A stretch of DNA of 64,000 nucleotides, taken from the NCBI GenBank assembly GCA_000002445.1, contig CP000070.1:1536001-1600000 (forward strand), written 5' to 3'. Under the pieces are notes generated by a model. That model was given only the letters and a program-made list of their open reading frames with translations, did not search any database and was not told where the DNA came from. Below, in pieces: positions 46,408-64,000 of this stretch. A program made the translations under genes and the position numbers. Source of the DNA: Trypanosoma brucei (lineage: Eukaryota). Each line of letters begins with the position of its first letter. The first letter of the stretch is position 1.

Positions 46408-46959
46408 CGTTGCCCTCCCCCCCCCCCCATCCGTTTAACATTGGATTACACTGTTAATATTTTTGTGACTTGTGTGGGTGACGTAAGTAGCGGTGATGCT
46501 CTCTTTTTCAATTTCGTCTGATCTCCAGCGCGTAAACTCGTCAGTTGACAAAGTGATAGCGGGAAGTTTTAGGTACGTGCAGTGCCAAACTCACGTGAGA
46601 TCCGGCACTGGCACGATCCGTACATTTCGCAGTTTATTCTTGCGTGTGTATGTGCGTGCGGGTATTTCCGATTTGCCAACCCTTGTTTTTTCCTCCCTCT
46701 TGACTCGCACATTTATTAAACCCATGCTATGAGTATATATATATTTATATATTGTCCTGCATGCTTTGTCCTCTGTACAAATGTCCAAGCACTCTTTCCC
46801 CCCTCTACAACTTGTCGTTCCGCCTCATCCACATCTGCATACACTTATCGGCGTGCGGATAGCGGCAGAGGTTGTGTGCGTATCGTTAAATCATTAAGCA
46901 AAACAAAGACAACCAAGAAAAGAGACAAGGCTGTACCCGCTGTTTTCTCGTTAGATTCA

Positions 46960-48960
46960 ATGAATGAGGATAAAAAAGCACCCTTGACCGTTGAAACGGG
47001 GGCTGATTCATCGGAGAAGAAGTCCATTTTTTCAGTTCCGAACGAGACACTCGTTGAGTTTGACGCGAAGAGTGATACTATTCGTGGGGAACTGGTTCAG
47101 GTGATAGCGGCCTGGCTCATTGAGCAAGGTCTGACATCATCTGCGCAGTTGTTATGTGATGAAGCCGCGGCACTCTTCCACCAGGAGCACAGCGAGCGGA
47201 AAACCCTTCGGGACGTCTCTCGGTCCGTGCAGGAAGGCAACTGGGAGGCTGCAAGTAGTAAATTGAAGAAACTTGAACCATTAATAGCACCGGAGGCTGA
47301 TGTGAGTCGTGACTCGTCATCTCAAACTGCATCACTCATTCGATCACTGCCTTTCTTGCTCGCTCAACAGCAATTCTTGGAGTATGTTGACGAAGACGAT
47401 GGGCAACGGGCGCATCATTTCTTTATGAGAAGAATTAAACCACTTGAGGGAACAATCAATAGGGAACATTTCCAGCAGCTAGTTTATTTGCTTACGTGCA
47501 GAAACGTTTCAGAGGCTGGAACGACCTTCCCAGTTTGGCGTGGTTGGACACCAATGAAGGGGCGCCTGCAGCTTCAATCCCTTATTGCGAACATCATTGG
47601 ACACTATAATACGAGTCCGTACTGCCACCAGTATAAGTACCATGTTGATGACGAACCAAACGCCACTGTCATAAACCTGGAACAAATATTAGCGAATTCT
47701 TTATCATATGAACTTTTAAAGTCGCAACATCCCAATCTATTGGCGGGTCTTCCTGTGCACCCCGTGTACTCCATTTGGAGACCCTTGGGTGAGCAGTTGC
47801 TTCCCACAAACCTCGTCATGACGCTGGATGTCAATACATTGTGCCACAGCGCCAAACTTCACACGGGGGAAAACGTACGGCTGACGGCTTGCCAGCCCTT
47901 CCTTCAGGTGCCCGCACTCGCTGTTGGGACGGATGCGGGGGAAATCTTGTGGGTGCCTCTGAAGAACAGAAAAGAAGACACAACACTGGAATCACATGGG
48001 GCGTGTACGTCCTTGTACCGTTACAAGGCTCCCGTGAGAGGAATGACGTACCATGAGCAACAATTGCTTCTCTCATGGAGTGGATGTCAAGCTGTAGTCC
48101 TTAACGTTGTTCAACTAAAGAAGTCAAGAGGCACTGTCCCGGAACAACAGGATTATTTGGCTGACTGTGTTGCGAACACATTTACTCATGCCGCAGAGGT
48201 GCGATCGGCTTGTTTGTTCCCATGCGGTTTTATTCTCGCAACGGGTTTGTCTGACGGAACCGTCACTGAATGGAATCTCATAACAGGGGCACAGATGTCT
48301 CAGCACGCATTTAGCGCCTCATCCATCGAGTCTTTAGCGGTGAATCGCTCAGGTAGTTGTTACTTCGCCGCCTCGCGAGAGGGTCTTGTCCGCGTTGTGG
48401 ATGCTTCCACGGGTGTGCTTCTCTTCACATTCGCGCTGTTGATAACCAGTGAAATATCTTCTATAGCTATTTCCCCTTCCTCCTCACTGCTGCTGGTGTG
48501 CTACAAAACTGGTACGCTTCGACTATGGGATGTGCTGACAGGCAATTCACTTGCTCAGCGACTGGAAGGCATGGAGAGCACAAAATGTCGATGCACCTGC
48601 GTCACGTTTGGTGCCAATGACTCGCATATTATAACGGGACACGACGACGGATGCCTTTATTTCTGGGACACGGGTCGTTCGCGGCTACGGCGGTGCCAAA
48701 CCGCCTCATCTCCGCTATCTTCTGCCTTTGGGAGTCGGGAGGGTGCTCACGGGGAGTCACCAGTGCTTTATTCGCCGAATAATCCAAGCATGCATAACTT
48801 CCCTCCGGGTGAAGCAGTGTCGCCGCAAACGTCTCTTCGACTTCATCGAGCGCAAATAACCGATGTGAAGTTTCAGCACAACTATGTGGTGACGTGTGGG
48901 GGTGACGGTAGGATATGCATATGTGCGAGCGTCATGAAGGACATGGAAAGGAGAGTGTGA
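46960..48960 (+). CDS. LisH-CTLH-WD40 repeat protein (WDR26/Gid7- or SMU1-like), about 666 aa
   Basis: Track ORF 46729 begins in pyrimidine-rich junk; the first plausible ATG is at 46960 (MNEDKK). VQVIAAWLIEQGLTSSAQLLCDEAA is a LisH-like helix pair. A CTLH-like region follows. The C-terminal half has WD-repeat hallmarks: LSDGTVTEWNL, GTLRLWDV and GHDDGCLYFWD. Confidence 0.7.
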   Translation: MNEDKKAPLTVETGADSSEKKSIFSVPNETLVEFDAKSDTIRGELVQVIAAWLIEQGLTSSAQLLCDEAAALFHQEHSERKTLRDVSRSVQEGNWEAASSKLKKLEPLIAPEADVSRDSSSQTASLIRSLPFLLAQQQFLEYVDEDDGQRAHHFFMRRIKPLEGTINREHFQQLVYLLTCRNVSEAGTTFPVWRGWTPMKGRLQLQSLIANIIGHYNTSPYCHQYKYHVDDEPNATVINLEQILANSLSYELLKSQHPNLLAGLPVHPVYSIWRPLGEQLLPTNLVMTLDVNTLCHSAKLHTGENVRLTACQPFLQVPALAVGTDAGEILWVPLKNRKEDTTLESHGACTSLYRYKAPVRGMTYHEQQLLLSWSGCQAVVLNVVQLKKSRGTVPEQQDYLADCVANTFTHAAEVRSACLFPCGFILATGLSDGTVTEWNLITGAQMSQHAFSASSIESLAVNRSGSCYFAASREGLVRVVDASTGVLLFTFALLITSEISSIAISPSSSLLLVCYKTGTLRLWDVLTGNSLAQRLEGMESTKCRCTCVTFGANDSHIITGHDDGCLYFWDTGRSRLRRCQTASSPLSSAFGSREGAHGESPVLYSPNNPSMHNFPPGEAVSPQTSLRLHRAQITDVKFQHNYVVTCGGDGRICICASVMKDMERRV

Positions 48961-49332: not shown

Positions 49333-49683
49333 ATGAAGTATAACTTCAAGGATTCACATTCTCTGGTAAAGCGATTGAATGAATCCGCAAAGGTGCGCAA
49401 GAGTCACCCCAACCATTTTCCCGTCATATGTGAAAAGGTGTATAACTCCGATATTGGTGAGTTAGACAGGTGTAAATTTCTCGTCCCATCTGATCTAACG
49501 GTCGGACAGTTTGTCAGCGTGCTACGCAAACGTGTGCAGCTGGAAGCCGAATCTGCACTCTTCGTTTATACCAATGACACAGTACTCCCCTCCAGTGCGC
49601 AAATGGCGGACATTTACTCCAAATATAAGGATGAAGACGGTTTCCTATACATGAAATATTCAGGTGAGGCGGCATTTGGATAA
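49333..49683 (+). CDS. ATG8.1: Autophagy ubiquitin-like protein ATG8, ending in the exposed Gly (ATG8.1-type), 116 aa
   Basis: Track ORF 49291 starts at GTG; the ATG is at 49333 (MKYNFKDSH...). It aligns at full length to ATG8/GABARAP: FPVICEKVYNSDIGELDRCKFLVPSDLTVGQFVSVLRKRVQLEAESALFVYTNDTVLPSSAQMADIYSKYKDEDGFLYMKYSGEAAFG, then stop. The terminal Gly is immediately followed by the stop codon. Confidence 0.9.
   Translation: MKYNFKDSHSLVKRLNESAKVRKSHPNHFPVICEKVYNSDIGELDRCKFLVPSDLTVGQFVSVLRKRVQLEAESALFVYTNDTVLPSSAQMADIYSKYKDEDGFLYMKYSGEAAFG
49424..49680 (+). repeat. Block of about 250 nt inside ATG8.1 that is nucleotide-identical to 51068-51324 in ATG8.2 (a gene-conversion tract)
   Basis: A direct comparison of the two stretches shows identity from tcatatgtgaaaaggtg through caggtgaggcg. 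There is one mismatch 9 nt before the stop. The flanks are unrelated. Confidence 0.85.
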
Positions 49684-50189
49684 TGGGGTATCGTCCGTGT
49701 GCGAGTAGTGATTGCGTTACTGTGCAAATATATGTCACACCCCACGGCGGTGGTGAGGGCACCTCGTTGGATTCTCTACCATGTTTAAGTGTTTATCGTG
49801 TTGTGGAAGGAAGGAAGGAAGAGGTGGAGGGGGGGAAATGCGGTGATTAGTGTGACGTAAGGAGGAGGTGAGGAGTTGAACTGCTCGACTCCCGAAATGA
49901 AGTTGTGCTTTTGTTTCCATTTTGTTTTTATACCATGCTTTTACCCTTTTTTTTTGTTTTTGCGTTGACAGCGGGAAAATGAACTGCGGAAAACACAAAC
50001 TATATGTGTGTGGTGTATCTTTCAGTGTTTATGTGAGAAGTGTCAACACACCCGCACCCTCTTCTTTGTCACCTATAGCGGAGAGAACAAAGGAGCGCGT
50101 AGAAAAAGAAAGTGAAACACTCTTTTTGATGTAGTTTCACACCCCACCCCCTAGCCTCCATGGAGCGTCCGTGAATAACGTATACGCAC

Positions 50190-50193
<4 letters not shown>

Positions 50194-50222
<29 letters not shown>
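50194..50222. repeat. (TA)14 microsatellite between the two ATG8 genes
   Basis: Seen directly. Confidence 0.95.
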
Positions 50223-50223
<1 letters not shown>

Positions 50224-50968
50224 GTGCACCTGCATAGTTTTTTTGGTGGTTTTTTTAGGAGTTGATTGCTTTGTAGTTATTTTGTTCCTCTCTCACACGT
50301 GCGCCCTGCAACCTCTTTGAGTGTTTCACTTACTTCAGTTTCTTGCCCTAGTGATGACCGTTGTAATCGGTCTCTTTTTTTTTGTCTTATTTTCCCCTTC
50401 GGTCTTACAGTTAGACTTCTCTTGTTGTAGTCTCCATCTTCACTATTTCTCGTTTGTGCTTCTTTTACTTACTTCATTCATTTCATGTGTCACTGGAGCC
50501 CCATTGTCTGTTCAGCACAACAAACGGATGAAATTTATTTCCCCTGCTGTCGTATGGACCATCTTGTGGGGTTGCTTTTTTGCTTGTTTAGTTCTTTGTT
50601 CATATATATTTATTTGTCAACAGAGTTGCCATATAATCAATTTTGTCGAATTTACTCTTGAACGAGCTTTGTATCCCTTTGCCTCTCTCTGCTGCACTTC
50701 ATTTTCAATTGTCATTGCATACCAACTAATATGAACGTTCTTTCATTCAACATTCGCTCGTTTGTTGTTGTTGTTGTTGTTTTCTTTTTTGCCTCACTTC
50801 GCTTCGCTTGTGCCGGCTGGTGTGATAACACACACTGCAATAATACCAATTAGGACCAGCGCTAGAAAACAAATTTTATTAGTAAACAGTAAGTAACCCG
50901 CTACAGCCTGAATTGATATTCACCACTGGTACATATAAAAAGAAAGCACAGAAGAATTAGTGTACATA

Positions 50969-51331
50969 ATGAGTAAAAAAGATAGCAAGTACAAAATGAG
51001 CCACACCTTTGAGAGCCGACAGTCGGATGCCGCAAAGGTGCGTGAAAGGCATCCGGATCGTTTGCCCATCATATGTGAAAAGGTGTATAACTCCGATATT
51101 GGTGAGTTAGACAGGTGTAAATTTCTCGTCCCATCTGATCTAACGGTCGGACAGTTTGTCAGCGTGCTACGCAAACGTGTGCAGCTGGAAGCCGAATCTG
51201 CACTCTTCGTTTATACCAATGACACAGTACTCCCCTCCAGTGCGCAAATGGCGGACATTTACTCCAAATATAAGGATGAAGACGGTTTCCTATACATGAA
51301 ATATTCAGGTGAGGCGACATTTGGATGCTAA
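50969..51331 (+). CDS. ATG8.2: Autophagy ubiquitin-like protein ATG8 with one extra residue (Cys) after the conjugation Gly (ATG8.2-type), about 120 aa; alternative start at 50996
   Basis: Track ORF 50960 starts at GTG; the ATGs are at 50969 and 50996. From IICEKVY onward the protein is identical to the upstream copy, except for Ala to Thr near the end and the C-terminal ...GEATFGC. The N-terminal about 25 aa differ. Confidence 0.9.
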   Translation: MSKKDSKYKMSHTFESRQSDAAKVRERHPDRLPIICEKVYNSDIGELDRCKFLVPSDLTVGQFVSVLRKRVQLEAESALFVYTNDTVLPSSAQMADIYSKYKDEDGFLYMKYSGEATFGC

Positions 51332-52515: not shown

Positions 52516-53640
52516 ATGCACGGTGACGGTTTGGGGCGTCTGCACCCCGGTAAGGTGTTCCTTACCATTGACGAGATTAAAAATGGCATATCTTCCTATC
52601 AGATCTTCGATGTCCGCTACGACCTCCGCAATAAAGAGTACGGTATCAACCAATACAACAAAGGGCATGTCGCGCGCGCCACATTTGTCGACTTGGATCG
52701 ACACCTTAGCGGTCCCGTCGTGGAATGCAGCAAAGCACGGCACCCCATGCCAGACCCGCACGAGTTTGTCGAGTGGTGCAAATCCAAGGGAATTGGCCAC
52801 TTCAAGCCCGTCCTTTGCTACGATGACGAATGTGGGGCGATGGGGGCGTGTCGGATGTGGTGGATGCTCAACGCCCTTGGTGTCGAGGCTTACGTAATGA
52901 CATGTGGATTCAAAGCATATGAAGCAGCAGGTCTGCCCGTCGAGTCCACACCGTATGACAAGAACCAATCGACAAGCTATTGGCCTTACGCAACAGAGTT
53001 TAAGAGGCTGTTGAAAATCAAAGACATTCCTCCCTGCGCACATATGGTCGACACACGACCCGCGCTGCGCTTCAACACGACCGTGCGACCATACGGACCC
53101 GACGATATCCCTGGTCATATCGAAGGCGCGGTCAACCTTCCGTACGATGTGAACATATTGTTAGTAAATCGGCACGAAAAACGTTTGAGACCCAATGACG
53201 AATGTCGTAGTAACACTCTTAAGCTTCTTCAAGGAATGTGGGGTGGCGGTGAGCCTAATATTTCCCACTGCGTATTTTACTGCGGTAGTGGGGTGACCGC
53301 TGCATTCAGCATTGCAGTTGCATATCACGTCGGACTCGGCGAGCCCTATCTATATGCCGGTTCGTGGTCCGAATATGCAGACACATTTAACTTTACACTG
53401 GCGCGCCGTATCATTAAAGAGCACGGCTTGCTCATAAGCATGGTCTCATCAAGTTTGCCGTATAACATGAAAGCTACTCTTAACAACGTTACCCTTGTTG
53501 TTGATGGTGTGGTTGTAAACAATCCTGATGAGGAACTGAAACAGGCGCTAGTGCACCTCCACATTGGTGAAAAAGCACATGTAACGTTCAAAAGTCAGCG
53601 ACAGGCTGTCATAGAGGCTCATCCTCGCATAGACACGTAA
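52516..53640 (+). CDS. MST: 3-Mercaptopyruvate sulfurtransferase (tandem rhodanese domains) with trypanosomatid-type C-terminal extension of about 80 aa, 374 aa
   Basis: It has two rhodanese-like halves. The active-site loop is CGSGVTA (FYCGSGVTAAFSIAVAYHVGLG). CG[ST]GVTA is diagnostic of mercaptopyruvate sulfurtransferases, whereas thiosulfate rhodaneses have CRKGVTA. The C-terminal tail ARRIIKEHGLL...EAHPRIDT extends beyond the second domain, as described for Leishmania MST. Confidence 0.85.
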   Translation: MHGDGLGRLHPGKVFLTIDEIKNGISSYQIFDVRYDLRNKEYGINQYNKGHVARATFVDLDRHLSGPVVECSKARHPMPDPHEFVEWCKSKGIGHFKPVLCYDDECGAMGACRMWWMLNALGVEAYVMTCGFKAYEAAGLPVESTPYDKNQSTSYWPYATEFKRLLKIKDIPPCAHMVDTRPALRFNTTVRPYGPDDIPGHIEGAVNLPYDVNILLVNRHEKRLRPNDECRSNTLKLLQGMWGGGEPNISHCVFYCGSGVTAAFSIAVAYHVGLGEPYLYAGSWSEYADTFNFTLARRIIKEHGLLISMVSSSLPYNMKATLNNVTLVVDGVVVNNPDEELKQALVHLHIGEKAHVTFKSQRQAVIEAHPRIDT

Positions 53641-54035: not shown

Positions 54036-54222
54036 TTAATGCTCTCATTTCTCCCTTTTTTGACTTATTGAACCTTTGAACAATACCACAGACTAACAGC
54101 AATAAACAAGCACGCAGTCACGTAAAGGAACCTAACATTTTAGGGAAACAAAAATTATCTGGCAGCACACTGGGCGAAACATCAGGAGGAATACAACTGA
54201 GCGTACTGTACAAAACATTGCC
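54036..54222 (+). promoter_or_regulatory. Conserved PAD 5-prime flank / 5-prime UTR block (copy 1); probably holds the trans-splice acceptor and 5-prime UTR
   Basis: About 187 nt is near-identical at 54036-54222, 56793-56979 and 63090-63277 (cttaatgct[c/t]tcatttctccc...cagcacactggg[c/t]gaaacatc[a/g]ggaggaatacaactgagcgtactgtacaaaacattgcc ATG). Sequence further upstream and downstream of each stop codon differs. Confidence 0.6.
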
Positions 54223-56013
54223 ATGAGCGCACCCGTCGACAACGTCGTGGTGGAGCGGCTCTCTACAGCCAACCAAAAACCCATCAACGAGCCCCGCCGC
54301 TTTGCGCTGTTGGTTCTTGGAACCTTCTGCTGTATATGCACATCCTTCATGTATGCTTTCAATCTTATATCTGGAGCAATGCAAGCGCGCTACAACCTCA
54401 CACAGCGAGATCTCTCCACCATCACTACTGTTGGTATCGCAGTTGGATATTTCTTGCTGCCCTACAGCTTCATCTTTGACTATCTGGGGCCGAAGCCTAT
54501 CTTCGTGATCGCAATGACAGTTTTCTGCCTGGGTGCGCTTCTGTTTGCCTTGACATTCCAAGAAGTGATTGAAGGATCTGTTGTGAGACTCAGTGTCTAC
54601 AATGGTTTTTTAACATTGGGATGTATGTTGTTTGACTTGGGTTCAGTGGTAACAGTACTCAGCGTGTTTCCATCCAACCGTGGTGCCGTGATGGCTATCG
54701 TGAAGACATTTACGGGTCTTGGTTCCGCAATCGTCGGCAGTATTCAGTTGGCCTTCTTCAGCAAGAGTGTTGCCAACTACTTTTTCTTCCTGATGTCGTT
54801 TTCACTGGTCGTTGGTACCCTCGCCGTCGTGTTCATGAATCTACCACCATTCCATTTGACGGGTTATCAGAAGACACACCTTGATGAAGAAGAGAAGGCA
54901 CAGAGGCTTGCGCGCAAGGGTGTGTACCTGAAGCAGAAGGCACCCATGTGGCGTTTCGTTCATGGTTTCGCCATTCTCGTAACCCTCATTGTGTTCCTCC
55001 CCCTGCAGGGAGCGCTCGTAGCGTATCTCAAACTCGGAAGCAACTTCAAGGTGGGGTTTGCTGTGACAGTTATTGTGTTGACGGTAATATTCCCTTTTAT
55101 GGCATACCCACTTACTACCTTCGACGGAAAACGCCCACATGACGATTCTGAGGGTGAAACGTGTTGTAGGAGAGAAGTGGCTGAGGAAGTTTCCGCGTCT
55201 GATGACACGGGTGTTGAGACTGATGTCGACTATATTGCTCCACAGTTCCAGGAAACATTTATCGAAGGATTGAAAACAGCACGGTTATGGTGCCTACTGT
55301 GGTCAATTTTCTGTTGCGTCGGTGTGCACTATGTTATCATCTACAATGCTCGTTTCATCTACACGGCACTTGCGGGTGAGGCCCCCGACGACGCGCTCAA
55401 TGCCCTCCTTACTGTTCTCAACGGTGTGGGTAGTGCTGTAGGACGACTTTGTATGAGTTACTTCGAAGTCTGGTCGCAGAAGCGCCGTGCTGAAGATCGC
55501 GTCCCCATCACCTTCTCTATGTTTGTTCCTTCGGTTTGTATCATCACCATGTTGACACTCTTCCTCACTCTCCCGAAGGCTGCATTACCTTTACCATACT
55601 TCATCGCGGCACTTTCAAATGGTTTCACAGCGGCGATTATTGCATTGGTAACGCGCACAATATTCGCCAAGGATCCTGCAAAGCATTACAACTTCTGCTT
55701 TCTTGGCTCCGTGCTTTCAGCCATCTTCCTTAATCGACTACTGTACGGTGAGTGGTACACGCAACAAGCCGATAAGTTGGGTCAGGATGTTTGCACCGAG
55801 CGTGTTTGTGTGGTGATGCCGCTTGCATTTATGTTAGGTCTCGCCTTCCCAGCATTTGCTACTAGCACCTACTTGCATCTGCAGTACCGCCGCCTTTGCA
55901 TGCTTGCGCTTGACGAGCGTCGTCGCATCCGGGAGGGCGAACGTGGACCAAAGGAACCTTCTTCCTGCCCAAAAGAACCGACGAGGGATGCCCGTGAGGC
56001 TGCTCCGCAATGA
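54223..56013 (+). CDS. PAD: PAD-family (Protein Associated with Differentiation) MFS-type carboxylate transporter, copy 1, 596 aa
   Basis: An ATG-initiated ORF encoding a polytopic membrane protein of 12 or more hydrophobic segments. It is 95 percent identical to the next copy. Tandem duplication next to ATG8 and MST matches the T. brucei chromosome 7 PAD array, so this could be PAD1 by position. That is from memory and not verified. Confidence 0.85.
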   Translation: MSAPVDNVVVERLSTANQKPINEPRRFALLVLGTFCCICTSFMYAFNLISGAMQARYNLTQRDLSTITTVGIAVGYFLLPYSFIFDYLGPKPIFVIAMTVFCLGALLFALTFQEVIEGSVVRLSVYNGFLTLGCMLFDLGSVVTVLSVFPSNRGAVMAIVKTFTGLGSAIVGSIQLAFFSKSVANYFFFLMSFSLVVGTLAVVFMNLPPFHLTGYQKTHLDEEEKAQRLARKGVYLKQKAPMWRFVHGFAILVTLIVFLPLQGALVAYLKLGSNFKVGFAVTVIVLTVIFPFMAYPLTTFDGKRPHDDSEGETCCRREVAEEVSASDDTGVETDVDYIAPQFQETFIEGLKTARLWCLLWSIFCCVGVHYVIIYNARFIYTALAGEAPDDALNALLTVLNGVGSAVGRLCMSYFEVWSQKRRAEDRVPITFSMFVPSVCIITMLTLFLTLPKAALPLPYFIAALSNGFTAAIIALVTRTIFAKDPAKHYNFCFLGSVLSAIFLNRLLYGEWYTQQADKLGQDVCTERVCVVMPLAFMLGLAFPAFATSTYLHLQYRRLCMLALDERRRIREGERGPKEPSSCPKEPTRDAREAAPQ

Positions 56014-56792
56014 AGCTTAGGGGAGCCAGTGGAGGGCGGCTTCCTGACGTTTATTCAACATTTTGTGTATTTATATAATGTTAGCGACGACAGGAGAAAG
56101 TAAAATGAACAGATATACTTTGATTCCTTTTTACTATACTTTTCCTTTTTTTTTGCTTCTTTGTCTATACATATCGCATACCATTAGTGAGTTCCTTTAT
56201 TATCGCCTCCGACAATGAAGACGGTGCGCCAACTCTGGTAAACGATAAATAAACGGTTTTAAAAAATCATCTTTACACATATTGTACGAGCAGTCCATGC
56301 ATTATTATTCTTTTTTTTTGAGTTTTCTCATCAGAAGAGATCGATACAACAACACCAGTCACTATATGAACACACCAACTTATATCGTTAAATTCTTCAC
56401 TTAGCTCTCGTTTATGATCGATAAAAGTTCGAATTCACCTCAAAAAATTTCCAGAATTAATATTATATTTTCTTTCCATTCTTTGCTATTTTCAGAGCGA
56501 TCTCCTTACTCTCACCCACTCTTCACCCGTGGAAACACCATGTAATCCTTTTCTTCTTGCGGTGGGAGAGAGGAGAGTGCAGACCAACACAGGCACCCCA
56601 ACACCGTTGATCCGTAGTGCTACCTATCTCGTCTTCATATCTTTACTGCTTGTTATAATTTTGTCTTTTTTACCTTTTTTTTTCGGCTGCGCTGTCACGG
56701 TTTTATAAATGTCCATTGCAAAATAGTTGCTCTCAAGACACACATCAATAGCATTATATCCGCCCAATACCTCTTCTTTCATTCTCCCAAAA

Positions 56793-56979
56793 CTTAATGC
56801 TTTCATTTCTCCCTTTTTGACTTATTGAACCTTTGAACAATACCACAGACTAACAGCAATAAACAAGCACGCAGTCACGTAAAGGAACCTAACATTTTAG
56901 GGAAACAAAAATTATCTGGCAGCACACTGGGCGAAACATCAGGAGGAATACAACTGAGCGTACTGTACAAAACATTGCC
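56793..56979 (+). promoter_or_regulatory. Conserved PAD 5-prime flank block (copy 2)
   Basis: The same block as at 54036-54222, with one T indel. Confidence 0.6.
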
Positions 56980-58797
56980 ATGAGCGCACCCGTCGACAAC
57001 GTCGTGGTGGAGCGGCTCTCTACAGCCAACCAAAAACCCATCAACGAGCCCCGCCGCTTTGCGCTCTTGGTTCTCGGAACCTTCTGCTGTATATGCACAT
57101 CCTTCATGTATGCTTTCAATCTTATATCTGGAGCAATGCAAGCGCGCTACAACCTCACACAGCGAGATCTCTCCACCATCACTACTGTTGGTATCGCAGT
57201 TGGATATTTCTTGCTGCCCTACAGCTTCATCTTTGACTATCTGGGGCCGAAGCCTATCTTCGTGATCGCAATGACAGTTTTCTGCCTGGGTGCGCTTCTG
57301 TTTGCCTTGACATTCCAAGAAGTGATTGAAGGATCTGTTGTGAGACTCAGTGTCTACAATGGTTTTTTAACATTGGGATGTATGTTGTTTGACTTGGGTT
57401 CAGTGGTAACAGTACTCAGCGTGTTTCCATCCAACCGTGGTGCCGTGATGGCTATCGTGAAGACATTTACGGGTCTTGGTGCCGCAATCGTCGGCAGTAT
57501 TCAGTTGGCCTTCTTCAGCAAGAGTGTTGCCAACTACTTTTTCTTCCTGATGTCGTTTTCACTGGTCGTTGGTACCCTCGCCGTCGTGTTCATGAATCTA
57601 CCACCATTCCATTTGACGGGTTATCAGAAGACACACCTTGATGAAGAAGAGAAGGCACAGAGGCTTGCGCGCAAGGGTGTGTACCTGAAGCAGAAGGCAC
57701 CCATGTGGCGTTTCATCTATGGTTTCGTCGTTCTTTTGATTCTTGTTGTCTTCCTCCCCTTGGAGGGAGCGCTCGTAGCGTATCTCAAACTCGGAAGCAA
57801 CTTCAAGGTGGGGTTTGCTGTGACAGTTATTGTGTTGACCGTAATATTCCCTTTTATGGCATTCCCACTTACTACCTTCGACGGAAAACGCCCACATGAC
57901 GATTCTGAGGGTGATGCCAAAGAACACGTTGAAGCGGATGATGAAGTTTCCGCGGCGGAAGATAAGGTAGTTGAGACTGATGTCGACTATATTGCTCCAC
58001 AGTTCCAGGAAACATTTATCGAAGGATTGAAAACAGCACGGTTATGGTGCCTACTGTGGTCAATTTTCTGTTGCGTCGGTGTGCACTATGTTATCATCTA
58101 CAATGCTCGTTTCATCTACACGGCACTTGCGGGTGAGGCCCCCGACGACGCGCTCAATGCCCTCCTTACTGTTCTCAACGGTGTGGGTAGTGCTGTAGGA
58201 CGACTTTGTATGGGCTACTTCGAAGTCTGGTCGCAGAAGCGCCGTGCTGAAGATCGCGTCCCCATCACCTTGTCTATGTTTGTTCCTTCGGTTTGTATCA
58301 TCACCATGTTGACACTCTTCCTCACTCTCCCGAAGGCTGCATTACCTTTACCATACTTCATCGCAGCGTTCTCAAATGGCTTTATGGCGGCTACGATGGC
58401 ACTCGTAACACGCACAATATTCGCCAAGGATCCTGCAAAGCATTACAACTTCTGCTTTCTTGGCTCCGTGCTTTCAGCCATCTTCCTTAATCGACTACTG
58501 TACGGTGAGTGGTACACGCAACAAGCCGATAAGTTGGATCAGGATGTTTGCACCGAGCGTGTTTGTGTGGTGATGCCGCTTGCATTTATGTTAGGTCTCG
58601 CCTTCCCAGCATTTGCTACTAGCACCTACTTGCATCTGCAGTACCGAAATCTTTGTTTGAAGGCCCTTGAGGAGCGACGGAGGATAAAGGAAGCTGAAGA
58701 TAACCAAACAAATGCTGAAAATGTTTGTGCTGAACCTACCTGCGACGATAACGCTGATGCTTGTCTGGAGGAGAAAGCTGCTGATTCAAGCAAGTAA
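56980..58797 (+). CDS. PAD: PAD-family MFS-type carboxylate transporter, copy 2, 605 aa
   Basis: It begins 2757 nt downstream of copy 1 and is in register with it, including the 5-prime flank. The first about 735 nt of the CDS are near-identical to copy 1. Two central clusters of substitutions fall in hydrophilic loops, and there is a 3-codon indel. The C-terminal tail is different (…YRNLCLKALEERRRIKEAEDNQTNAENV...). Confidence 0.85.
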   Translation: MSAPVDNVVVERLSTANQKPINEPRRFALLVLGTFCCICTSFMYAFNLISGAMQARYNLTQRDLSTITTVGIAVGYFLLPYSFIFDYLGPKPIFVIAMTVFCLGALLFALTFQEVIEGSVVRLSVYNGFLTLGCMLFDLGSVVTVLSVFPSNRGAVMAIVKTFTGLGAAIVGSIQLAFFSKSVANYFFFLMSFSLVVGTLAVVFMNLPPFHLTGYQKTHLDEEEKAQRLARKGVYLKQKAPMWRFIYGFVVLLILVVFLPLEGALVAYLKLGSNFKVGFAVTVIVLTVIFPFMAFPLTTFDGKRPHDDSEGDAKEHVEADDEVSAAEDKVVETDVDYIAPQFQETFIEGLKTARLWCLLWSIFCCVGVHYVIIYNARFIYTALAGEAPDDALNALLTVLNGVGSAVGRLCMGYFEVWSQKRRAEDRVPITLSMFVPSVCIITMLTLFLTLPKAALPLPYFIAAFSNGFMAATMALVTRTIFAKDPAKHYNFCFLGSVLSAIFLNRLLYGEWYTQQADKLDQDVCTERVCVVMPLAFMLGLAFPAFATSTYLHLQYRNLCLKALEERRRIKEAEDNQTNAENVCAEPTCDDNADACLEEKAADSSK

Positions 58798-61700
58798 CAT
58801 CTTTTTTTTCTTTTCACTAACTTATGTTTTTAGCGGCACGTTACAGTGTACTAATTATCGTTTTACCCTCTCTTTTTTATTTTTTAATTTGTTAAAAAAT
58901 TTTCCCTCAAAACGTCTTTTCTTTTTGTGAATTACTATTCCTTCCCTTTTTTTTTTGTTTTTGTGGGGAAGGGGGAGGAAATTGTGGTAATGTAAACTGG
59001 TATATGTGTTTAATAACTTAAATGCCTTATGATGTGCAATTTCATTAGTAGTTCCGCTGCTTTCCAGTACCGAATATATTTTATGTTACTTAGCCTTCGC
59101 TGCGATGTAACAAGTAGTGGGGTGGTTGATTACTTGGCATATATAATGCACAGCATCAGGGCAGAGGCCACAGTTGTTTAGTTACACATTTTCCTACCTT
59201 CCATAATGTTGTTTTTTTTAGATTGAGCGATTCTTCCCCTTAAACTAATAATGTTTTTTAATTACCTCCTTCTTCCATCTTTTTTTTATTTTTGAAGGTC
59301 AGATTCCTTTTTATTATTATTATTTCTTCTCCCCTTTTCTGTGACTGTCTTTCAACCGCTTAGCACGTTGTTAGCGGAAGGACAAACGAAAACCTTAAAG
59401 GTTTTTGTTAATTTTGTCTATTTACTCTGTTTTGTATCGATTTTCTTTTGAAACGCCACTGAAAATGTGGAGCACATTTACTTTTTTTCCGGCTGTTCAC
59501 ACATGTACACATGCTTGGCCTTTCAAATCCACGCAAACCTTTGAACGCCTCTTTTTTTTTAAGTTTCTTCTTAAGAGAACGTTTTTTTTGATTATTTTTC
59601 TTTTTTAGTTTGAATACTACAAAACTACTTGTTCCCAATGTATTGGTTAATTGCCGGTCGTGGGATTTTGGTCCTTAACACGTAGCGGATAGATGCGTCG
59701 CTCATGATTAACCTGTGCTTTACTGCTTAATTCCTTTAGTCATAGTGTAGGAAAATATACGAATAGGAAAATGCAAACCACATCATGAGAGCATGGCATT
59801 CATTGTTCAATGTCTGCGGTGATGATGAAAGGTGCAGAAGCCAACTTTCGTTGCTTCGTCGGGGAACCCGTGTGCAGCGAAGGTTCCTCTTAACCGTCGG
59901 GTGCTCGGCATTTGACAGGCAGTAGCTTTATACCGCGTTCATCCCATTAATTATTCTTTTGCTTTGTTGCCTCTACAACATGCTCGCTTGGGAATCAGCC
60001 GATGCTGATGTTATTGCACACGTTTATATTTGTGTTTACGTGTATGCTCACCTGTGTACAAGAGGAAGAAGCATGTGGGCCTATCCATCACTACCAGAGC
60101 GGAAACCTGTTGCACCTAAAAGGTGATAACCCATTGAAAAAATATTGCTATGTAGGTGAAAAACAAACGGCAAAGAAAAAAAGGAAGGGAAAGCTAAGCA
60201 AAGCATATCCCTCACCCAGACGTCTGAGATAAACGTGAAACTGGACGAAGTGAAATAACACACAAAAGAGTAATTGAACAAATGGTTTCTTCTTTGTCCC
60301 CAAATGCCACTCAGAGGGAAGATGGTACGACCCAACGCTACGAAGCACCAAAGCCCTATTTGTAAGGTAGCGAAGGGAGACGAGGAAAGGGGCTAACGCT
60401 GAGGCGGGAAATTTTAGCGGAGGCAGCGGGAGGAACGTTGGGATTTACAGGGCGCAAGTGACGTCATCATTCTCTGGCAAGTTTTTGTGGTAAAACAGCG
60501 AATGCTCCGGGTGGGAATGAAGTGCTTTTAGAGTGCCCTATACCTTTTTAACGTGCTTTTCTTTCTTTCTGACTTTCGTTTGCTTCGCGGCGGCAATGTA
60601 CGTGCTCACTTTGGTAGTATTTCCAATACCATTGGTAACACTATTTACTGGGGAAAAACGTTAAAACTCTGTATGCGATGTGTTGACGGCGATTAGTGGT
60701 GTTGGAGCGAGGAGGTCTCGTTTTCTCAATATTCCACGATGGGTGTGTGGGTGTGTCGCAAGGGCGGGAAAATTTCTCGTAGCAATTCCTACATATTTGT
60801 CGTGAGCAATTCACCAACGCAGCAAGATGAGGGAACCGCGCATTGGGGAAACAGGGGTTTACATTTCGCAGAAGCGCTTAATAGACATGCACAAATAACA
60901 CATGTTTGTTGGATGTTTGATCATGCACATGTAGTGGAGAAAGTAGACGCACACCCTTCCGCGCACCAAGCTAGGAGAGATCAAGGATTCCATCCTTAAA
61001 AGCGATGATGCTTGGTGTAAAGCATATTTCTTGATGTGACATAACTTTCGGGTGAACTACGTATTGGTTGGGGAGGGTTTCCCCTTGAATGCAAGGCGAA
61101 ATTTAGGTGGTTACAATTGAATGTATTTTTACTTTTTTTTTTCCAATGGCGTGCCTCCCAGCCAACGTTATTGGTGAACGCTCTTCAGATGTGAATACGT
61201 GAGCGCACCTACAGTGCGAGTTCTTTCACCCATCAGCACGGGTATGTTCCTACTCCGAGGTCAGTCCAGCTTGGCACCTCGGTGCATCGGGAGGCCCGCT
61301 GTGAGGTAGAGTCACCTCATTTTTTTTCCTTGTGTCAGTTAAAAAGCCGCTTCGCTGTATCAATGGTAAAGCTCTGTGACGACGACACTGCGGCAGGAGG
61401 TGAAGCTTGGGCTCAAAGTGTCCAATTTGTGTGTTGAGGTGCCCCATCAACCTGAAAATCTGTGCGCACGTTGGGTGCCACTCTGGTGATTTGGTGCGCG
61501 TGTCCCCAAGCGTAATCAGCGATCCACTTGGCGGTGCCACCCTCTCCTGCGATCAAACGGCTGCGTCTGGCGCCAATGCGGCTGACGTTGTGCCAACTCC
61601 CATGGTAAGAGGCCCTGGTAGGAAGGGTCTACCCGCCTTTGGATTTGGTGGTGAAACTGCGGTGCGTCCACTGTTTTATATTTTCCTCTGCAATCGTATC

Positions 61701-63089
61701 AGTGTTTAATGAGAAGTATGAAGGGGCTTTCTGTTTCGTTGCTTGCATCTTATTCACGCTCATCTTGTCTTTTTGCCGAACAAGTCGGTGTTTGAGGTAC
61801 CTCATCCTACTACGAACGGCCGGGTCCCTCTACGTTCGGAACTGAAGATACACGATATCCACTTTATGTCGCTCTCATCACCAACGTGATGGGTAATGCT
61901 GTGCGCGTTGAAGGGAGAATGCCTTCAAGTTAACATGAGGGTGTTGCCACCCTGCCTGCAATGATACACCCCTGGGCTCCTTCAACTCATCACCACAAAA
62001 AGGACTGCGAATTCATAACCCCGGAAGGTCTCCCTCAATATCTCTTGGACAATTCAGCACCTCTCCGTTTACATACTTCAGACGTGTCCCTCTGATGTTC
62101 GGCGATGTGATAAGTCATTCCTTGCAACTGCAAGACTTATTGCGTCTCTATGCGGGCATAGCTCCAGTTTATTAGGGAGGGGGAATCAGGTGCGAGTCCA
62201 GGTTCGTCACCTCGCTGTGAAGCACGTTGTAAATGCCACGATGCTCGGTTGTAGAAACCGCTGCGTAACTTTGCGCTCATGTGTCCTGCCGGGTCGCGTC
62301 ACGTGGCAGTGATTCTCAGCGTCAAAGGGGTCCCCGACGGTATTACAAGCTTGAACCGTGCTGTTTTCAGTTGCGCAACCATGGCCATCATATCAGTGAA
62401 CCGTAGCCTCCCCGAAGGAATCGTAGGGAAGCGACTGGGGGCGTGCGAGCACTCACCAACGACTAATGTTTAGTTTCCTTCCACCCAATTATGTGCCGCA
62501 CTGCGTAGAGGATGTCTTTGCGCCCTGTGGGGAAATCGGAGCCTTCTCAGCCGAGAGATAACTGAGTGCAGATGTAAACTACCACAGCCACTCAACAGCC
62601 ACTGCCAAGTGAAACGGTTTACGTCATACCGTTTTCACTGCATCCGTATTTTACTCGTCTTTGATGCCATCAGCATCAAACAACATCATAAATACAGTAG
62701 TGTGCCACAAACTCCGAGTTATGCTTACTCTAACCGTAGAAGCAGAAAGGGTATGACAACAAAGGAGTCATTAACCCCTCAAACCACGTAGAATACATAA
62801 CAGTCCCCCTCTCCACCCCTACGCCAGGAAAGCACATTTCACATAATGTCGGAGAGACTAATGTGACTACAATGCGCGCACAGCACCTTTATTACCAAAA
62901 AGAAATGGACAAGCGAAGCAAAAAAAAAAAAAGAGACATTTGATCAACGCGCAAAAAATGAGGGATTGAACCTTCCAAATGGAAAGCACCTCCCGTCTTT
63001 TTCATGAAAAACAGCAAGCAAGATGTATTCTCCCAGACAACAATAGAGCTATGATTAACTTCTCACCACCTAGTTTCGTTCTCCCAAAA

Positions 63090-63277
63090 CTTAATGCTCT
63101 CATTTCTCCCCTTTTCGACTTATTGAACCTTTGAACAATACCACAGACTAACAGCAATAAGCAAGCACGCAGTCACGTAAAGGAACCTAACATTTTAGGG
63201 AAACAAAAATTATCTGGCAGCACACTGGGTGAAACATCGGGAGGAATACAACTGAGCGTACTGTACAAAACATTGCC
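63090..63277 (+). promoter_or_regulatory. Conserved PAD 5-prime flank block (copy 3)
   Basis: The same block as at 54036-54222, with a few substitutions and a one-base indel. Confidence 0.6.
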
Positions 63278-64000
63278 ATGAGCGCACCCGTCGACAACGT
63301 CGTGGTGGAGCGGCTCTCTACAGCCAACCAAAAACCCATCAACGAGCCCCGCCGCTTTGCGCTGTTGGTTCTCGGAACATGTTGCTCAATCTGTACATCC
63401 TTCATGTATGCTTTCAATCTTATATCTGGAACAATGCAAGCACGCTACAGGTTTTCCGTAAAAGATATAATGAATGTCAATGCGGTAGGGCTTGCAGTTG
63501 GATATTTCATGCTGCCTTATGGTTTCATCTATGACTATCTGGGGCCGAGACCCATATTTATGCTCTCACTAACGGTGCTGTGTCTCGGTGCGTTGCTGTT
63601 TGCCTTGACATTACGAGGTGACATCGAAGGAACTGTTGTGAGACTCAGTGTCTACAATGGTCTCATGACATTGGGATGTATGTTGTTTGACTTAGGCGGT
63701 GTGGTGACAGTACTCAGCGTGTTTCCATCCAACCGTGGTGCCATTGTGGCTATCATGAAGAGCTTTGTGGGTCTTGGTGCTGCGATCCTAGGCAGTATTC
63801 AGTTGGCCTTCTTCAGTGACAGGCCAGATATATATTTCTTTTCTATCATGTCGTTTGCCCTAACGGTTGGTATCCTCGGCATTGTATTCATGCGTCTGCC
63901 ACCATTCCATTTGACGGGCTATCAGGAAAAGCACCTTGATGAAGAAGAGAAGGCACAGCTTCGCATGACCAAGACCGTGTACCTGAAGCAGAAGGCACCC
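63278..64000 (+). CDS. PAD: PAD-family transporter, copy 3, 5-prime partial; the ORF runs off the window end
   Basis: The same conserved 5-prime flank and the same first 30 codons occur as in copies 1 and 2 (MSAPVDNVVVERLSTANQKPINEPRRFAL). After that it diverges to about 75 percent amino-acid identity over the 241 codons in the window. There is no stop before position 64000. Confidence 0.8.
   Translation, partial: MSAPVDNVVVERLSTANQKPINEPRRFALLVLGTCCSICTSFMYAFNLISGTMQARYRFSVKDIMNVNAVGLAVGYFMLPYGFIYDYLGPRPIFMLSLTVLCLGALLFALTLRGDIEGTVVRLSVYNGLMTLGCMLFDLGGVVTVLSVFPSNRGAIVAIMKSFVGLGAAILGSIQLAFFSDRPDIYFFSIMSFALTVGILGIVFMRLPPFHLTGYQEKHLDEEEKAQLRMTKTVYLKQKAP

What the first reader, a model, noticed from the sequence alone, without database searches (positions are those of the whole stretch)
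49333..51331. Tandem ATG8 paralogues sharing about 250 nt of identical sequence, with different N-termini and different C-terminal ends (G-stop versus GC-stop)
Regions 49424-49680 and 51068-51324 are identical apart from one base. The first about 90 nt of the two CDSs encode unrelated N-termini, MKYNFKDSHSLVKRLNESAKVRKSHPNHF against MSKKDSKYKMSHTFESRQSDAAKVRERHPDRL. Both the 5-prime and 3-prime flanks diverge immediately. The upstream copy ends exactly at the conjugation glycine, so it would need no ATG4 processing. The downstream copy carries a single Cys after the Gly. The sharp edges of the identical block indicate recent gene conversion. That conversion has spared the N-terminal helices, which in ATG8 proteins determine partner and membrane interactions, and the ATG4-dependent tail. 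This matches what is described for T. brucei ATG8.1 and ATG8.2.
Basis: partly seen in the sequence, partly recalled or inferred. Interest (0 to 1): 0.6.

Follow-up and report, generated by a model that had tools for sequence, protein, structure and literature searches.

The report
Trypanosoma brucei ATG8.1/ATG8.2 gene pair
These are the two already-characterised tandem autophagy genes ATG8.1 and ATG8.2 of Trypanosoma brucei; their identical middle is kept identical by repeated copying between the neighbours (gene conversion), an ordinary process in trypanosome gene arrays that I could confirm by comparison with six other trypanosome species.

Summary
Two + strand CDSs (49333-49683, 116 aa, ending ...AAFG-stop; 50969-51331, 120 aa, ending ...ATFGC-stop) share a 248-nt block with no difference (49424-49671 = 51069-51316). 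The window is T. brucei TREU927 chromosome 7, and the genes are Tb927.7.5900 (ATG8.1) and Tb927.7.5910 (ATG8.2). ATG8.2 has a crystal structure (3H9D).

Their tandem arrangement, distinct N-termini, exposed Gly and Gly-Cys end are already published. The gene-conversion reading is supported:
- In the first 30 codons, synonymous sites are saturated. In the core, 0 of 55 synonymous sites differ.
- In T. congolense the same two N-termini and the residue-114 Ala/Thr difference are orthologous to those of T. brucei. Its two cores are identical to each other and differ from the T. brucei core at 8 residues.
- The same split is seen at DNA level for T. cruzi versus T. rangeli.
- T. vivax keeps an unhomogenised upstream copy.

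- The N-termini are homologous, not unrelated (11/30 residues, same register).
- The single mismatch is an old paralogue-specific site at the 3' edge of the tract.
- Copy-2 coordinates are off by 1-2 nt.

Concerted evolution of T. brucei tandem arrays is well documented; this pair was catalogued but not analysed. Low interest.

The parts
49333..49683 (+). ATG8.1 (Tb927.7.5900) CDS, 116 aa, stop directly after the conjugation Gly (GGA TAA)
   Evidence: ORF and translation. Pfam ATG8 PF02991, 136.6 bits, residues 13-116. 100% identical to P0003 / XP_846213, T. brucei TREU927.
50969..51331 (+). ATG8.2 (Tb927.7.5910) CDS, 120 aa, one Cys after the Gly (GGA TGC TAA)
   Evidence: ORF and translation. 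Pfam ATG8, 140.6 bits. Identical to Q582K6 and to PDB 3H9D over residues 1-119.
49424..49671 (+). Homogenised core, copy 1 (codons 32-113 and the last base of codon 31; ubiquitin-like core from ICEK to GEA)
   Evidence: 248 nt with no difference from 51069-51316. 0 of 55 synonymous sites differ. All 8 species-specific residues shared by both paralogues fall here.
51069..51316 (+). Homogenised core, copy 2
   Evidence: Same evidence as copy 1.
49333..49423 (+). ATG8.1-type N-terminal segment (helices alpha1-alpha2), outside the conversion tract
   Evidence: 53% nt identity to 50978-51068 in register, with synonymous sites saturated. Closest relative is the T. congolense 8.1 N-terminus, 20/31.
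50969..51068 (+). ATG8.2-type N-terminal segment, 3 codons longer, outside the conversion tract
   Evidence: Closest relative is the T. congolense 8.2 N-terminus, 29/34. 9 orthology-supporting columns lie in this segment.
49672..49683 (+). ATG8.1 tail: Ala114 (GCA)-Phe-Gly-stop; 3' edge of the tract
   Evidence: The Ala (8.1) versus Thr (8.2) difference is shared with T. congolense 8.1/8.2 (alignment column 121).
51317..51331 (+). ATG8.2 tail: Thr (ACA)-Phe-Gly-Cys-stop
49684..50968 (+). Intergenic spacer with unrelated 3' and 5' flanks, pyrimidine-rich tracts and a (TA)15 microsatellite at 50193-50222
   Evidence: 24-30% identity between flanks in register. The microsatellite is length-polymorphic among T. 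brucei assemblies. The ORF at 50357-50734 has no Pfam match and is probably spurious.
46729..48960 (+). Upstream synteny anchor: WD40-repeat protein gene
   Evidence: Pfam WD40. The same neighbour is present in T. cruzi, T. vivax, T. grayi, T. rangeli and T. melophagium.
52516..53640 (+). Downstream synteny anchor: rhodanese/DUF1930 protein gene
   Evidence: Pfam Rhodanese and DUF1930. The same neighbour is present in T. cruzi, T. vivax and T. rangeli. The T. grayi and T. melophagium contigs end before it.

Best explanation
The two genes are T. brucei ATG8.1 and ATG8.2, ubiquitin-like proteins that are lipidated on their C-terminal Gly and mark autophagosomes.

The duplication is old. It predates the T. 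brucei / T. congolense split with strong support. It probably predates T. vivax, and may date to the base of the genus, because every Trypanosoma locus I could fetch has 2-3 copies between the same neighbours.

Since then, non-reciprocal homologous recombination (gene conversion) between the neighbours has repeatedly overwritten an internal tract. In T. brucei this is the 248 nt encoding the ubiquitin-like core. The donor sequence type was that of ATG8.2.

The tract ends inside the CDS on both sides. Each gene therefore keeps its own N-terminal helices (first 30-34 codons), its own residue 114, its own tail (Gly-stop versus Gly-Cys-stop) and its own untranslated flanks.

Shown here: the homogenisation, its boundaries, orthology of the ends, and species-specific cores.

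Inferred: the recombination mechanism, and the reason the ends are spared. My view is that two things act together. The roughly 45% diverged ends block heteroduplex extension, and purifying selection acts on two functional N-termini.
For: Identity of the genes. Jackson 2007 Table S3 lists this pair at chr7 1585333-1587331, which equals window 49333-51331.

Homogenisation rather than constraint:
- N-terminal 30 codons: 42/90 nt differ and 14.2 of 17.7 synonymous sites differ. Core: 0 of 55 synonymous sites differ (p about 2e-39).
- Cores compared between species are saturated at synonymous sites, so synonymous sites are not constrained.

Concerted pattern:
- T. brucei / T. congolense quartet: 10 orthology columns, all outside the block; 8 concerted columns, all inside; no third topology (p = 2.3e-5).
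- Independent DNA-level replicate in T. cruzi / T. rangeli: 12 orthology sites, all at nt 1-59; 34 concerted sites, all at nt 69-364 (p = 2.6e-11).

Unhomogenised state: T. vivax copy a versus copy c, core 63% nt identity.

Donor type: at 22 discriminating core sites the T. brucei / T. congolense core matches T. vivax c (8.2-like) 18 times and T. vivax a 4 times.

Ongoing process:
- Tract ends differ between two T. cruzi strains (186 versus about 301 nt past the stop).
- CL Brener has a shifted 5' junction.

Functional N-termini: dN/dS of 0.02 and 0.23 between T. cruzi and T. rangeli.

General precedent: concerted evolution of T. brucei tandem arrays (PMC1855330).
Against: - T. congolense could be compared only at protein level, because no DNA was retrievable. 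Nucleotide identity of its two cores is therefore not shown.
- No conversion event is directly observed in T. brucei. The only hint of a polymorphic boundary is one site: 49423 G>A, the copy-2 state, in assembly GCA_003543875.1. It could be an independent transition.
- Orthology of the T. vivax, T. grayi and T. cruzi-clade upstream copies with ATG8.1 rests on gene position and a few N-terminal residues.
- T. vivax copy a is somewhat faster-evolving (41/82 versus 48/82 identity to Bodo). This weakens the donor-direction inference.
Confidence: 0.9

Rival explanations
1. Ancient duplication with strong purifying selection only. The core is identical because every change, including synonymous ones, is deleterious, and no conversion is involved.
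For: The ATG8 core is highly conserved at protein level across eukaryotes. The 13-nt island 49385-49397 (AKVR) is also identical outside the block.
Against: 0 of 55 synonymous sites differ within T. brucei, yet the same core is saturated at synonymous sites between species. The T. cruzi / T. rangeli cores have dS of about 0.55-0.62 but no difference within T. cruzi. Eight amino-acid changes separate the T. brucei and T. congolense cores, and each is present in both paralogues. Without conversion that would require 8 parallel substitutions.
Confidence: 0.01
2. A recent whole-gene duplication in T. brucei, followed by rapid divergence or replacement of the N-terminus, tail and flanks of one copy.
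For: The sharp edges and complete identity of the block are what a young duplicate would show.
Against: Both N-terminal types, and the Ala/Thr at residue 114, exist in T. congolense with 20/31 and 29/34 identity to their T. brucei counterparts, so both ends predate the species split. Synonymous sites in the N-terminal segment are saturated. The tandem arrangement is present across the genus.
Confidence: 0.03
3. Homogenisation by unequal crossing-over (array contraction and re-expansion) rather than by an internal conversion tract.
For: Copy number varies in the genus: 3 copies in T. vivax, where b and c share the N-terminus and 180 nt of 5' flank. In T. cruzi and T. rangeli the identical block runs from inside the CDS into the 3' flank.
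Against: In T. brucei (and T. melophagium) both edges of the block lie inside the CDS. Each gene keeps paralogue-specific sequence on both sides: the N-terminus, and residue 114 plus tail plus flank. A single unequal crossover homogenises everything on one side of the breakpoint, so two precisely placed exchanges would be needed.
Confidence: 0.05
4. The identical block is an assembly artefact: reads of two similar genes merged into one consensus.
For: Short identical repeats are a classic source of consensus errors in draft assemblies.
Against: Three independent T. brucei-group assemblies give the same two cores (TREU927 = the window, DAL972 = L008, GCA_003543875.1 = L007), with distinct ends and a 1.3-kb unique spacer. 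Published cloning from strain 427 genomic DNA reports divergence only at the N-termini (PMC5349162). A 248-nt repeat is shorter than Sanger reads.
Confidence: 0.01

Closest known systems
T. brucei ATG8.1 (Tb927.7.5900) and ATG8.2 (Tb927.7.5910); ATG8.2 crystal structure PDB 3H9D
   Same: These are the same genes: 100% protein identity and the same chromosomal coordinates. Already published: tandem genes on chromosome 7; 80-82% identity with divergence only at the N-termini; ATG8.1 ends in Gly; ATG8.2 has an extra Cys presumed to need ATG4; both form starvation-induced puncta (PMC3974859, PMC4474607, PMC5349162, PMC8161075).
   Different: Nothing differs in the object itself. The papers I could read describe the proteins. 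They do not describe the nucleotide-level identity of the core or its cause (searches found no paper linking trypanosome ATG8 with gene conversion or concerted evolution).
Concerted evolution and gene conversion in T. brucei tandem gene arrays (Jackson 2007, BMC Evol Biol 7:54, PMC1855330)
   Same: The phenomenon is the same. Paralogues within a species cluster together while divergent parts keep orthology, and structural heterogeneity limits homogenisation. The ATG8 pair is entry 60 of that paper's catalogue. The neighbouring array Tb61, which begins in this window, is one of its worked examples.
   Different: That study analysed only arrays with more than 3 copies, so this pair was listed but not tested. 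Here the tract is internal to a 350-nt CDS and coincides with a protein-domain boundary.
Apicomplexan ATG8 (Plasmodium, Toxoplasma), encoded with the Gly already exposed
   Same: The C-terminus ends at the conjugation Gly with no ATG4-removable tail, as in ATG8.1 (PMC8161075).
   Different: In apicomplexans it is the only ATG8. In T. brucei it sits beside a paralogue with a one-residue tail. In the genus the tail is labile: exposed Gly in T. brucei 8.1, T. vivax a, both T. grayi copies and T. melophagium b, but Gly-Cys in T. congolense 8.1.
Mammalian LC3/GABARAP paralogue families
   Same: Several ATG8 paralogues share one ubiquitin-like fold. Much of their functional difference is attributed to the N-terminal helices and the adjoining docking surface (established knowledge; summarised in PMC10104450).
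   Different: The mammalian paralogues are dispersed and diverged along their whole length. Here the cores are kept identical by conversion, so only about 30 N-terminal residues, residue 114 and the tail differ.

Membership tests
ATG8 / LC3 / GABARAP ubiquitin-like family | Full-length match to the family profile above the curated threshold | tested here: met
   Pfam PF02991: 136.6 bits (8.1, model positions 1-104) and 140.6 bits (8.2, model positions 2-104), against a cut-off of 27.
ATG8 / LC3 / GABARAP ubiquitin-like family | Ubiquitin-like fold preceded by two N-terminal helices | tested here: met
   ATG8.2 residues 1-119 are identical to the solved structure 3H9D. The description of the fold comes from PMC5349162. 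For ATG8.1 this is inferred from 85% identity over 112 residues and the profile match from position 1.
ATG8 / LC3 / GABARAP ubiquitin-like family | C-terminal aromatic-Gly conjugation site, exposed or followed by a short removable tail | tested here: met
   ...AAFG-stop in 8.1 and ...ATFGC-stop in 8.2, read directly from the sequence.
ATG8 / LC3 / GABARAP ubiquitin-like family | Lipidation and recruitment to autophagosomes; ATG4 dependence of the tailed form and independence of the Gly-ended form | not testable with these tools
   Literature only. Both form ATG3/ATG5/ATG7-dependent puncta (PMC8161075). ATG4 independence of 8.1 is stated as an inference (PMC4474607, PMC3974859).
Concerted evolution of tandem paralogues by gene conversion | Within the tract, paralogues of one species are closer to each other than to their orthologues | tested here: met
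   Core identity is 82/82 within T. brucei and within T. congolense, and 74/82 between them. All 8 concerted columns lie in the core. The T. cruzi / T. rangeli DNA replicate gives 34 concerted sites.
Concerted evolution of tandem paralogues by gene conversion | Outside the tract, orthology is retained, so the duplication predates speciation | tested here: met
   N-termini: T. brucei 8.1 to T. congolense 8.1, 20/31; 8.2 to 8.2, 29/34. 10 orthology columns, all outside the block.
Concerted evolution of tandem paralogues by gene conversion | Homogenisation includes synonymous sites that are free to vary between species | tested here: met
   0 of 55 synonymous sites differ in the core, against saturation in the N-terminal segment and between species. 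This was not testable for T. congolense because no DNA was retrievable.
Concerted evolution of tandem paralogues by gene conversion | Direct signs of ongoing exchange (tract boundaries polymorphic within a species) | tested here: inconclusive
   In T. cruzi the 3' boundary differs between two strains and one 5' junction variant exists. In T. brucei there is only one candidate site, 49423 in L007.

The most novel reading that the evidence does not exclude
Across the genus Trypanosoma, one syntenic tandem ATG8 array has been homogenised independently in at least five lineages: T. brucei, T. congolense, T. cruzi, T. rangeli and T. melophagium. There is partial homogenisation in T. grayi and T. 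vivax.

The first roughly 20-34 codons always escape. In T. brucei, T. congolense and T. melophagium the extreme C-terminus also escapes.

If this sparing is maintained by selection rather than by a passive mismatch barrier, trypanosomes keep two ATG8 isoforms whose only differences are the N-terminal helices and the tail. One candidate functional difference is that the 8.1 type has His/Tyr where other ATG8s have a conserved Arg (I recall this Arg contacting cargo-receptor motifs; not checked here). The pair would then be a natural domain-swap experiment on what the ATG8 N-terminus and ATG4 priming contribute. This genus-wide pattern, and the tandem pair in T. cruzi, were not described in the papers I could search.
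Probability: 0.4. Interest if true: 0.35.

Novelty: already known. Interest (0 to 1): 0.2.

Why it matters
For the scan, this is a correct call on a known locus. The genes, their unequal ends and their near-identical cores are in the T. brucei autophagy literature, and concerted evolution of trypanosome tandem arrays is textbook for the field.

What this check adds is small:
- The pair, listed but not analysed by Jackson 2007, does evolve in concert.
- The conversion tract is internal and ends close to the junction between the helical N-terminus and the ubiquitin-like core.
- The lone mismatch is an old paralogue-specific site.
- The same behaviour recurs across the genus.

The practical consequences are also modest. 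Any functional difference between ATG8.1 and ATG8.2 must map to about 30 N-terminal residues, residue 114, the terminal Cys or the untranslated regions. RNAi or probes against the core cannot distinguish the two genes.

Tried and rejected
- T. congolense DNA: exact-protein look-ups for both T. congolense proteins found nothing, so that species was used at protein level only.
- Bootstrapped neighbour-joining trees per segment timed out. I replaced them with nearest-neighbour tables and quartet site counts.
- Literature searches for ATG8 with 'gene conversion' or 'concerted evolution' in trypanosomes returned nothing relevant. The Leishmania linear-motif paper does not treat the Trypanosoma pair.
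- An Rfam scan of the whole window at gathering thresholds found nothing.
- The ORF between the two genes, annotated as a 126-aa protein in T. b. gambiense, has no Pfam match and lies in pyrimidine-rich spacer. I treated it as spurious.
- I considered a longer tract in assembly L007, from sites 49407 and 49423 carrying copy-2 states. I did not adopt it, because the five paralogue differences between those two sites keep the copy-1 state, so two independent transitions are as likely.
Full report
**1. What is in the sequence**

Two + strand ORFs lie 1.3 kb apart.
- CDS1 is 49333-49683. It encodes 116 aa and ends GGA TAA (...GEAAFG-stop).
- CDS2 is 50969-51331. It encodes 120 aa and ends GGA TGC TAA (...GEATFGC-stop).

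At a fixed offset of 1645 nt the loci are identical over 49424-49671 = 51069-51316 (248 nt). They differ at 49672/51317 (GCA Ala versus ACA Thr). They are then identical for 9 more bases, up to the first base after the Gly codon.

Identity in the same register is 30% in the 5' flank, 53% over the first 91 nt of the CDS, 100% in the block and 24% in the 3' flank. Only these two copies exist in the window. At the divergence seen in the N-terminal part, a 248-nt run without a difference has probability about 2e-68.

**2. What the genes are**

Both proteins match Pfam ATG8 over its full length (136.6 and 140.6 bits, cut-off 27).
- CDS1 is 100% identical to T. brucei TREU927 XP_846213.
- CDS2 is 100% identical to Q582K6 and, over residues 1-119, to the crystal structure 3H9D.

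[quoted passage not shown] That places the window at chr7 1,536,001-1,600,000. The genes are Tb927.7.5900 (ATG8.1) and Tb927.7.5910 (ATG8.2).

The following is already published:
- They are tandem genes on chromosome 7.
- They are 80-82% identical, with divergence only at the N-termini.
- ATG8.1 ends in an exposed Gly and is presumed not to need ATG4.
- ATG8.2 carries one extra Cys.
- Both form starvation-induced puncta.

Sources: PMC3974859, PMC4474607, PMC5349162, PMC8161075.

**3. Are the N-termini unrelated?**

No. The two proteins align without internal gaps. ATG8.2 simply has 3 extra residues at the start and one at the end. In the diverged first 30 aligned codons, 11 residues are identical, and a 13-nt identical island encodes AKVR. 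These are diverged versions of the same two N-terminal helices.

**4. Selection or homogenisation?**

In the first 30 codons, 42 of 90 nt differ and 14.2 of 17.7 synonymous sites differ, which is saturation. In the core, none of about 55 synonymous sites differ (p about 2e-39).

Between species the same core is saturated at synonymous sites (T. brucei versus T. cruzi, T. vivax and T. grayi). Synonymous sites are therefore free to change, and constraint cannot explain the identity.

**5.

T. congolense has the same pair.
- P0004 has an 8.1-type N-terminus (MKYSFKDTHSL...) and ends ...AALGC.
- P0002 has an 8.2-type N-terminus (MKLKDSKYKMGHTFESRQ...) and ends ...ATFGRRPCA.

In the N-terminal segment each T. 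brucei protein is closest to its T. congolense counterpart (20/31 and 29/34). In the core the two paralogues are 82/82 identical within each species and 74/82 between species.

Quartet site counts give 10 columns supporting orthology. Nine are in the N-terminus and one is residue 114 (Ala versus Thr). Eight columns support concerted evolution, and all are inside the block defined from T. brucei DNA alone. No column supports the third topology (Fisher p = 2.3e-5).

This is the signature of an old duplication whose core was homogenised separately in each lineage. It also shows that the single mismatch at 49672 is an old paralogue-specific difference. It marks the 3' edge of the tract, and the 9 identical bases after it are ordinary conservation.

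T. congolense DNA could not be retrieved. This is the main gap.

**6. A DNA-level replicate and the genus-wide picture**

The array sits between the same neighbours in T. cruzi, T. vivax, T. grayi, T. rangeli and T. melophagium: prenyltransferase and a WD40 protein upstream, and a rhodanese/DUF1930 protein downstream where the contig reaches that far. Copy number is 2, except 3 in T. vivax. Bodo saltans has a single copy in a different context.

- **T. cruzi.** The two copies differ only in the first ~21 codons. They are then identical through the stop and 186 nt (one strain) or about 301 nt (another strain) into the 3' flank. The CL Brener protein has a shifted 5' junction.
- **T. cruzi versus T. 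rangeli, at DNA level.** All 12 orthology-supporting sites lie at nt 1-59 and all 34 concerted sites lie at nt 69-364, with one site for the third topology (p = 2.6e-11). Between-species dS in the core is 0.55-0.62, yet within T. cruzi there are no differences.
- **T. melophagium.** It has a 253-nt block with 2 mismatches and edges in almost the same places as in T. brucei.
- **T. grayi.** It shows only a short, highly similar C-terminal stretch.
- **T. vivax.** The upstream copy a has an 8.1-like N-terminus (SFKNTHSL) and an exposed Gly. Its core is only 63% identical in nucleotides to copy c, which is what an unhomogenised pair looks like.

At 22 core sites that distinguish T. vivax a from c, the T. 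brucei / T. congolense core matches c 18 times and a 4 times. The homogenised core is therefore of the 8.2 type. This inference is moderately secure, because copy a is somewhat faster-evolving.

**7. Mechanism**

*Shown:* an internal tract, bounded on both sides within the CDS, is identical between neighbours. The sequence on either side keeps paralogue-specific, orthologously conserved states.

*Inferred:*
- This is gene conversion (non-reciprocal homologous recombination) rather than a single unequal crossover. A single crossover would homogenise everything on one side of the breakpoint.
- Once identical, the 248-nt core is a perfect recombination substrate. The ends are about 45% diverged and should block heteroduplex extension. 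From my own knowledge, recombination in T. brucei is known to be sensitive to mismatches through mismatch repair.
- Selection probably also contributes. The two N-terminal types are under purifying selection in the T. cruzi clade (dN/dS 0.02 and 0.23). In T. brucei, T. congolense and T. melophagium the 5' edge lies at the junction between the helical N-terminus and the first strand of the ubiquitin-like core.

I cannot separate the passive barrier from selection with these data.

Within the T. brucei group (TREU927, T. b. gambiense DAL972, GCA_003543875.1) both cores are invariant, apart from a 1-nt deletion in one assembly. The N-terminal segments carry 4 substitutions. One of them (49423 G>A) changes ATG8.1 to the ATG8.2 state and may represent a shifted boundary. 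This is suggestive only.

**8. Comparison with what is known, and novelty**

The object is already known, and it is these very genes. The process is the well-described concerted evolution of T. brucei tandem arrays (PMC1855330). That study catalogued this pair but analysed only arrays with more than 3 copies. I found no paper linking trypanosome ATG8 genes with gene conversion or concerted evolution.

The increment is:
- confirmation for this pair;
- precise tract edges;
- the reinterpretation of the single mismatch;
- the recurrence of the pattern across the genus.

An exposed Gly is not a fixed property of the 8.1-type copy. T. congolense 8.1 ends Gly-Cys. T. vivax a, both T. grayi copies and T. 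melophagium b end at Gly.

**9. Verdict**

Novelty is 'already known', and interest is low (0.2).

The most novel reading still open is that selection, not only a mismatch barrier, keeps two N-terminal types on an otherwise shared core throughout the genus. That would make the pair a natural domain-swap experiment (probability about 0.4, interest about 0.35).

Noticed in passing
L001 5046-5417 and 6001-6369; L002 5034-5405 and 6001-6369: T. cruzi long-read assemblies carry two tandem canonical ATG8 genes (123 and 122 aa) at the syntenic locus. They differ only in the first ~21 codons. The reviews I read list a single TcATG8.1 at this locus. The identical block reaches 186 nt past the stop in one strain and about 301 nt in the other, and the CL Brener protein P0123 has a shifted 5' junction.
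   Followed up: partly
L005 4126-4497, 4959-5354, 6001-6369 (T. vivax): T. vivax has three tandem ATG8 copies. Copy a is diverged throughout and ends at an exposed Gly. Copies b and c share an identical 5' flank (about 180 nt) and N-terminus, then show a mosaic of identical and diverged patches. Copy b has an unusual 11-residue tail, NSPSSSEVLRI.
   Followed up: partly
L010 5001-5312 (T. melophagium upstream copy): The upstream ATG8 copy has no N-terminal helices in any reading frame; 12 unrelated residues precede LPVVCEK. Its core is nevertheless 251/253 nt identical to the neighbouring full-length copy. It may be a truncated gene or pseudogene kept intact by conversion. The downstream copy ends ...AALG-stop.
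   Followed up: partly
window 49577 (L007, assembly GCA_003543875.1): In this third T. brucei-group assembly, ATG8.1 has a 1-nt deletion (AATGACACAG to AATGCACAG) and no gene is called there. This is either a real frameshift or a long-read assembly error. The same assembly has the copy-2 base at 49407 and 49423.
   Followed up: partly
window 54054-64000: A tandem array of MFS/nodulin-like transporter genes begins here (ORFs 54223-56013 and 56980-58797). The first two units are 2757 nt apart, a third copy of two of the blocks lies 6298 nt further on, and the repeated blocks are 81-100% identical. It corresponds to Jackson 2007 array Tb61, a published example of gene conversion.
   Followed up: partly
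window 50193-50222: A (TA)15 microsatellite in the ATG8.1-ATG8.2 spacer is length-polymorphic among the three T. brucei-group assemblies. The spacer ORF at 50357-50734, annotated as a 126-aa protein in T. b. gambiense, has no Pfam match and is probably not a gene.
   Followed up: partly
window 49410-49418 (ATG8.1 residues 26-28, NHF) versus 51055-51063 (ATG8.2, DRL): The 8.1-type N-terminus has His where ATG8.2 and other ATG8s have a conserved Arg (T. congolense HHF, T. vivax a DYV). From memory, that Arg contacts acidic residues of cargo-receptor motifs. This is a possible basis for different partner preference and was not tested.
   Followed up: no
window 1-64000: All 16 ORFs of at least 250 aa are on the + strand, consistent with a single polycistronic transcription unit. 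The Rfam scan at gathering thresholds found no RNA family.
   Followed up: no
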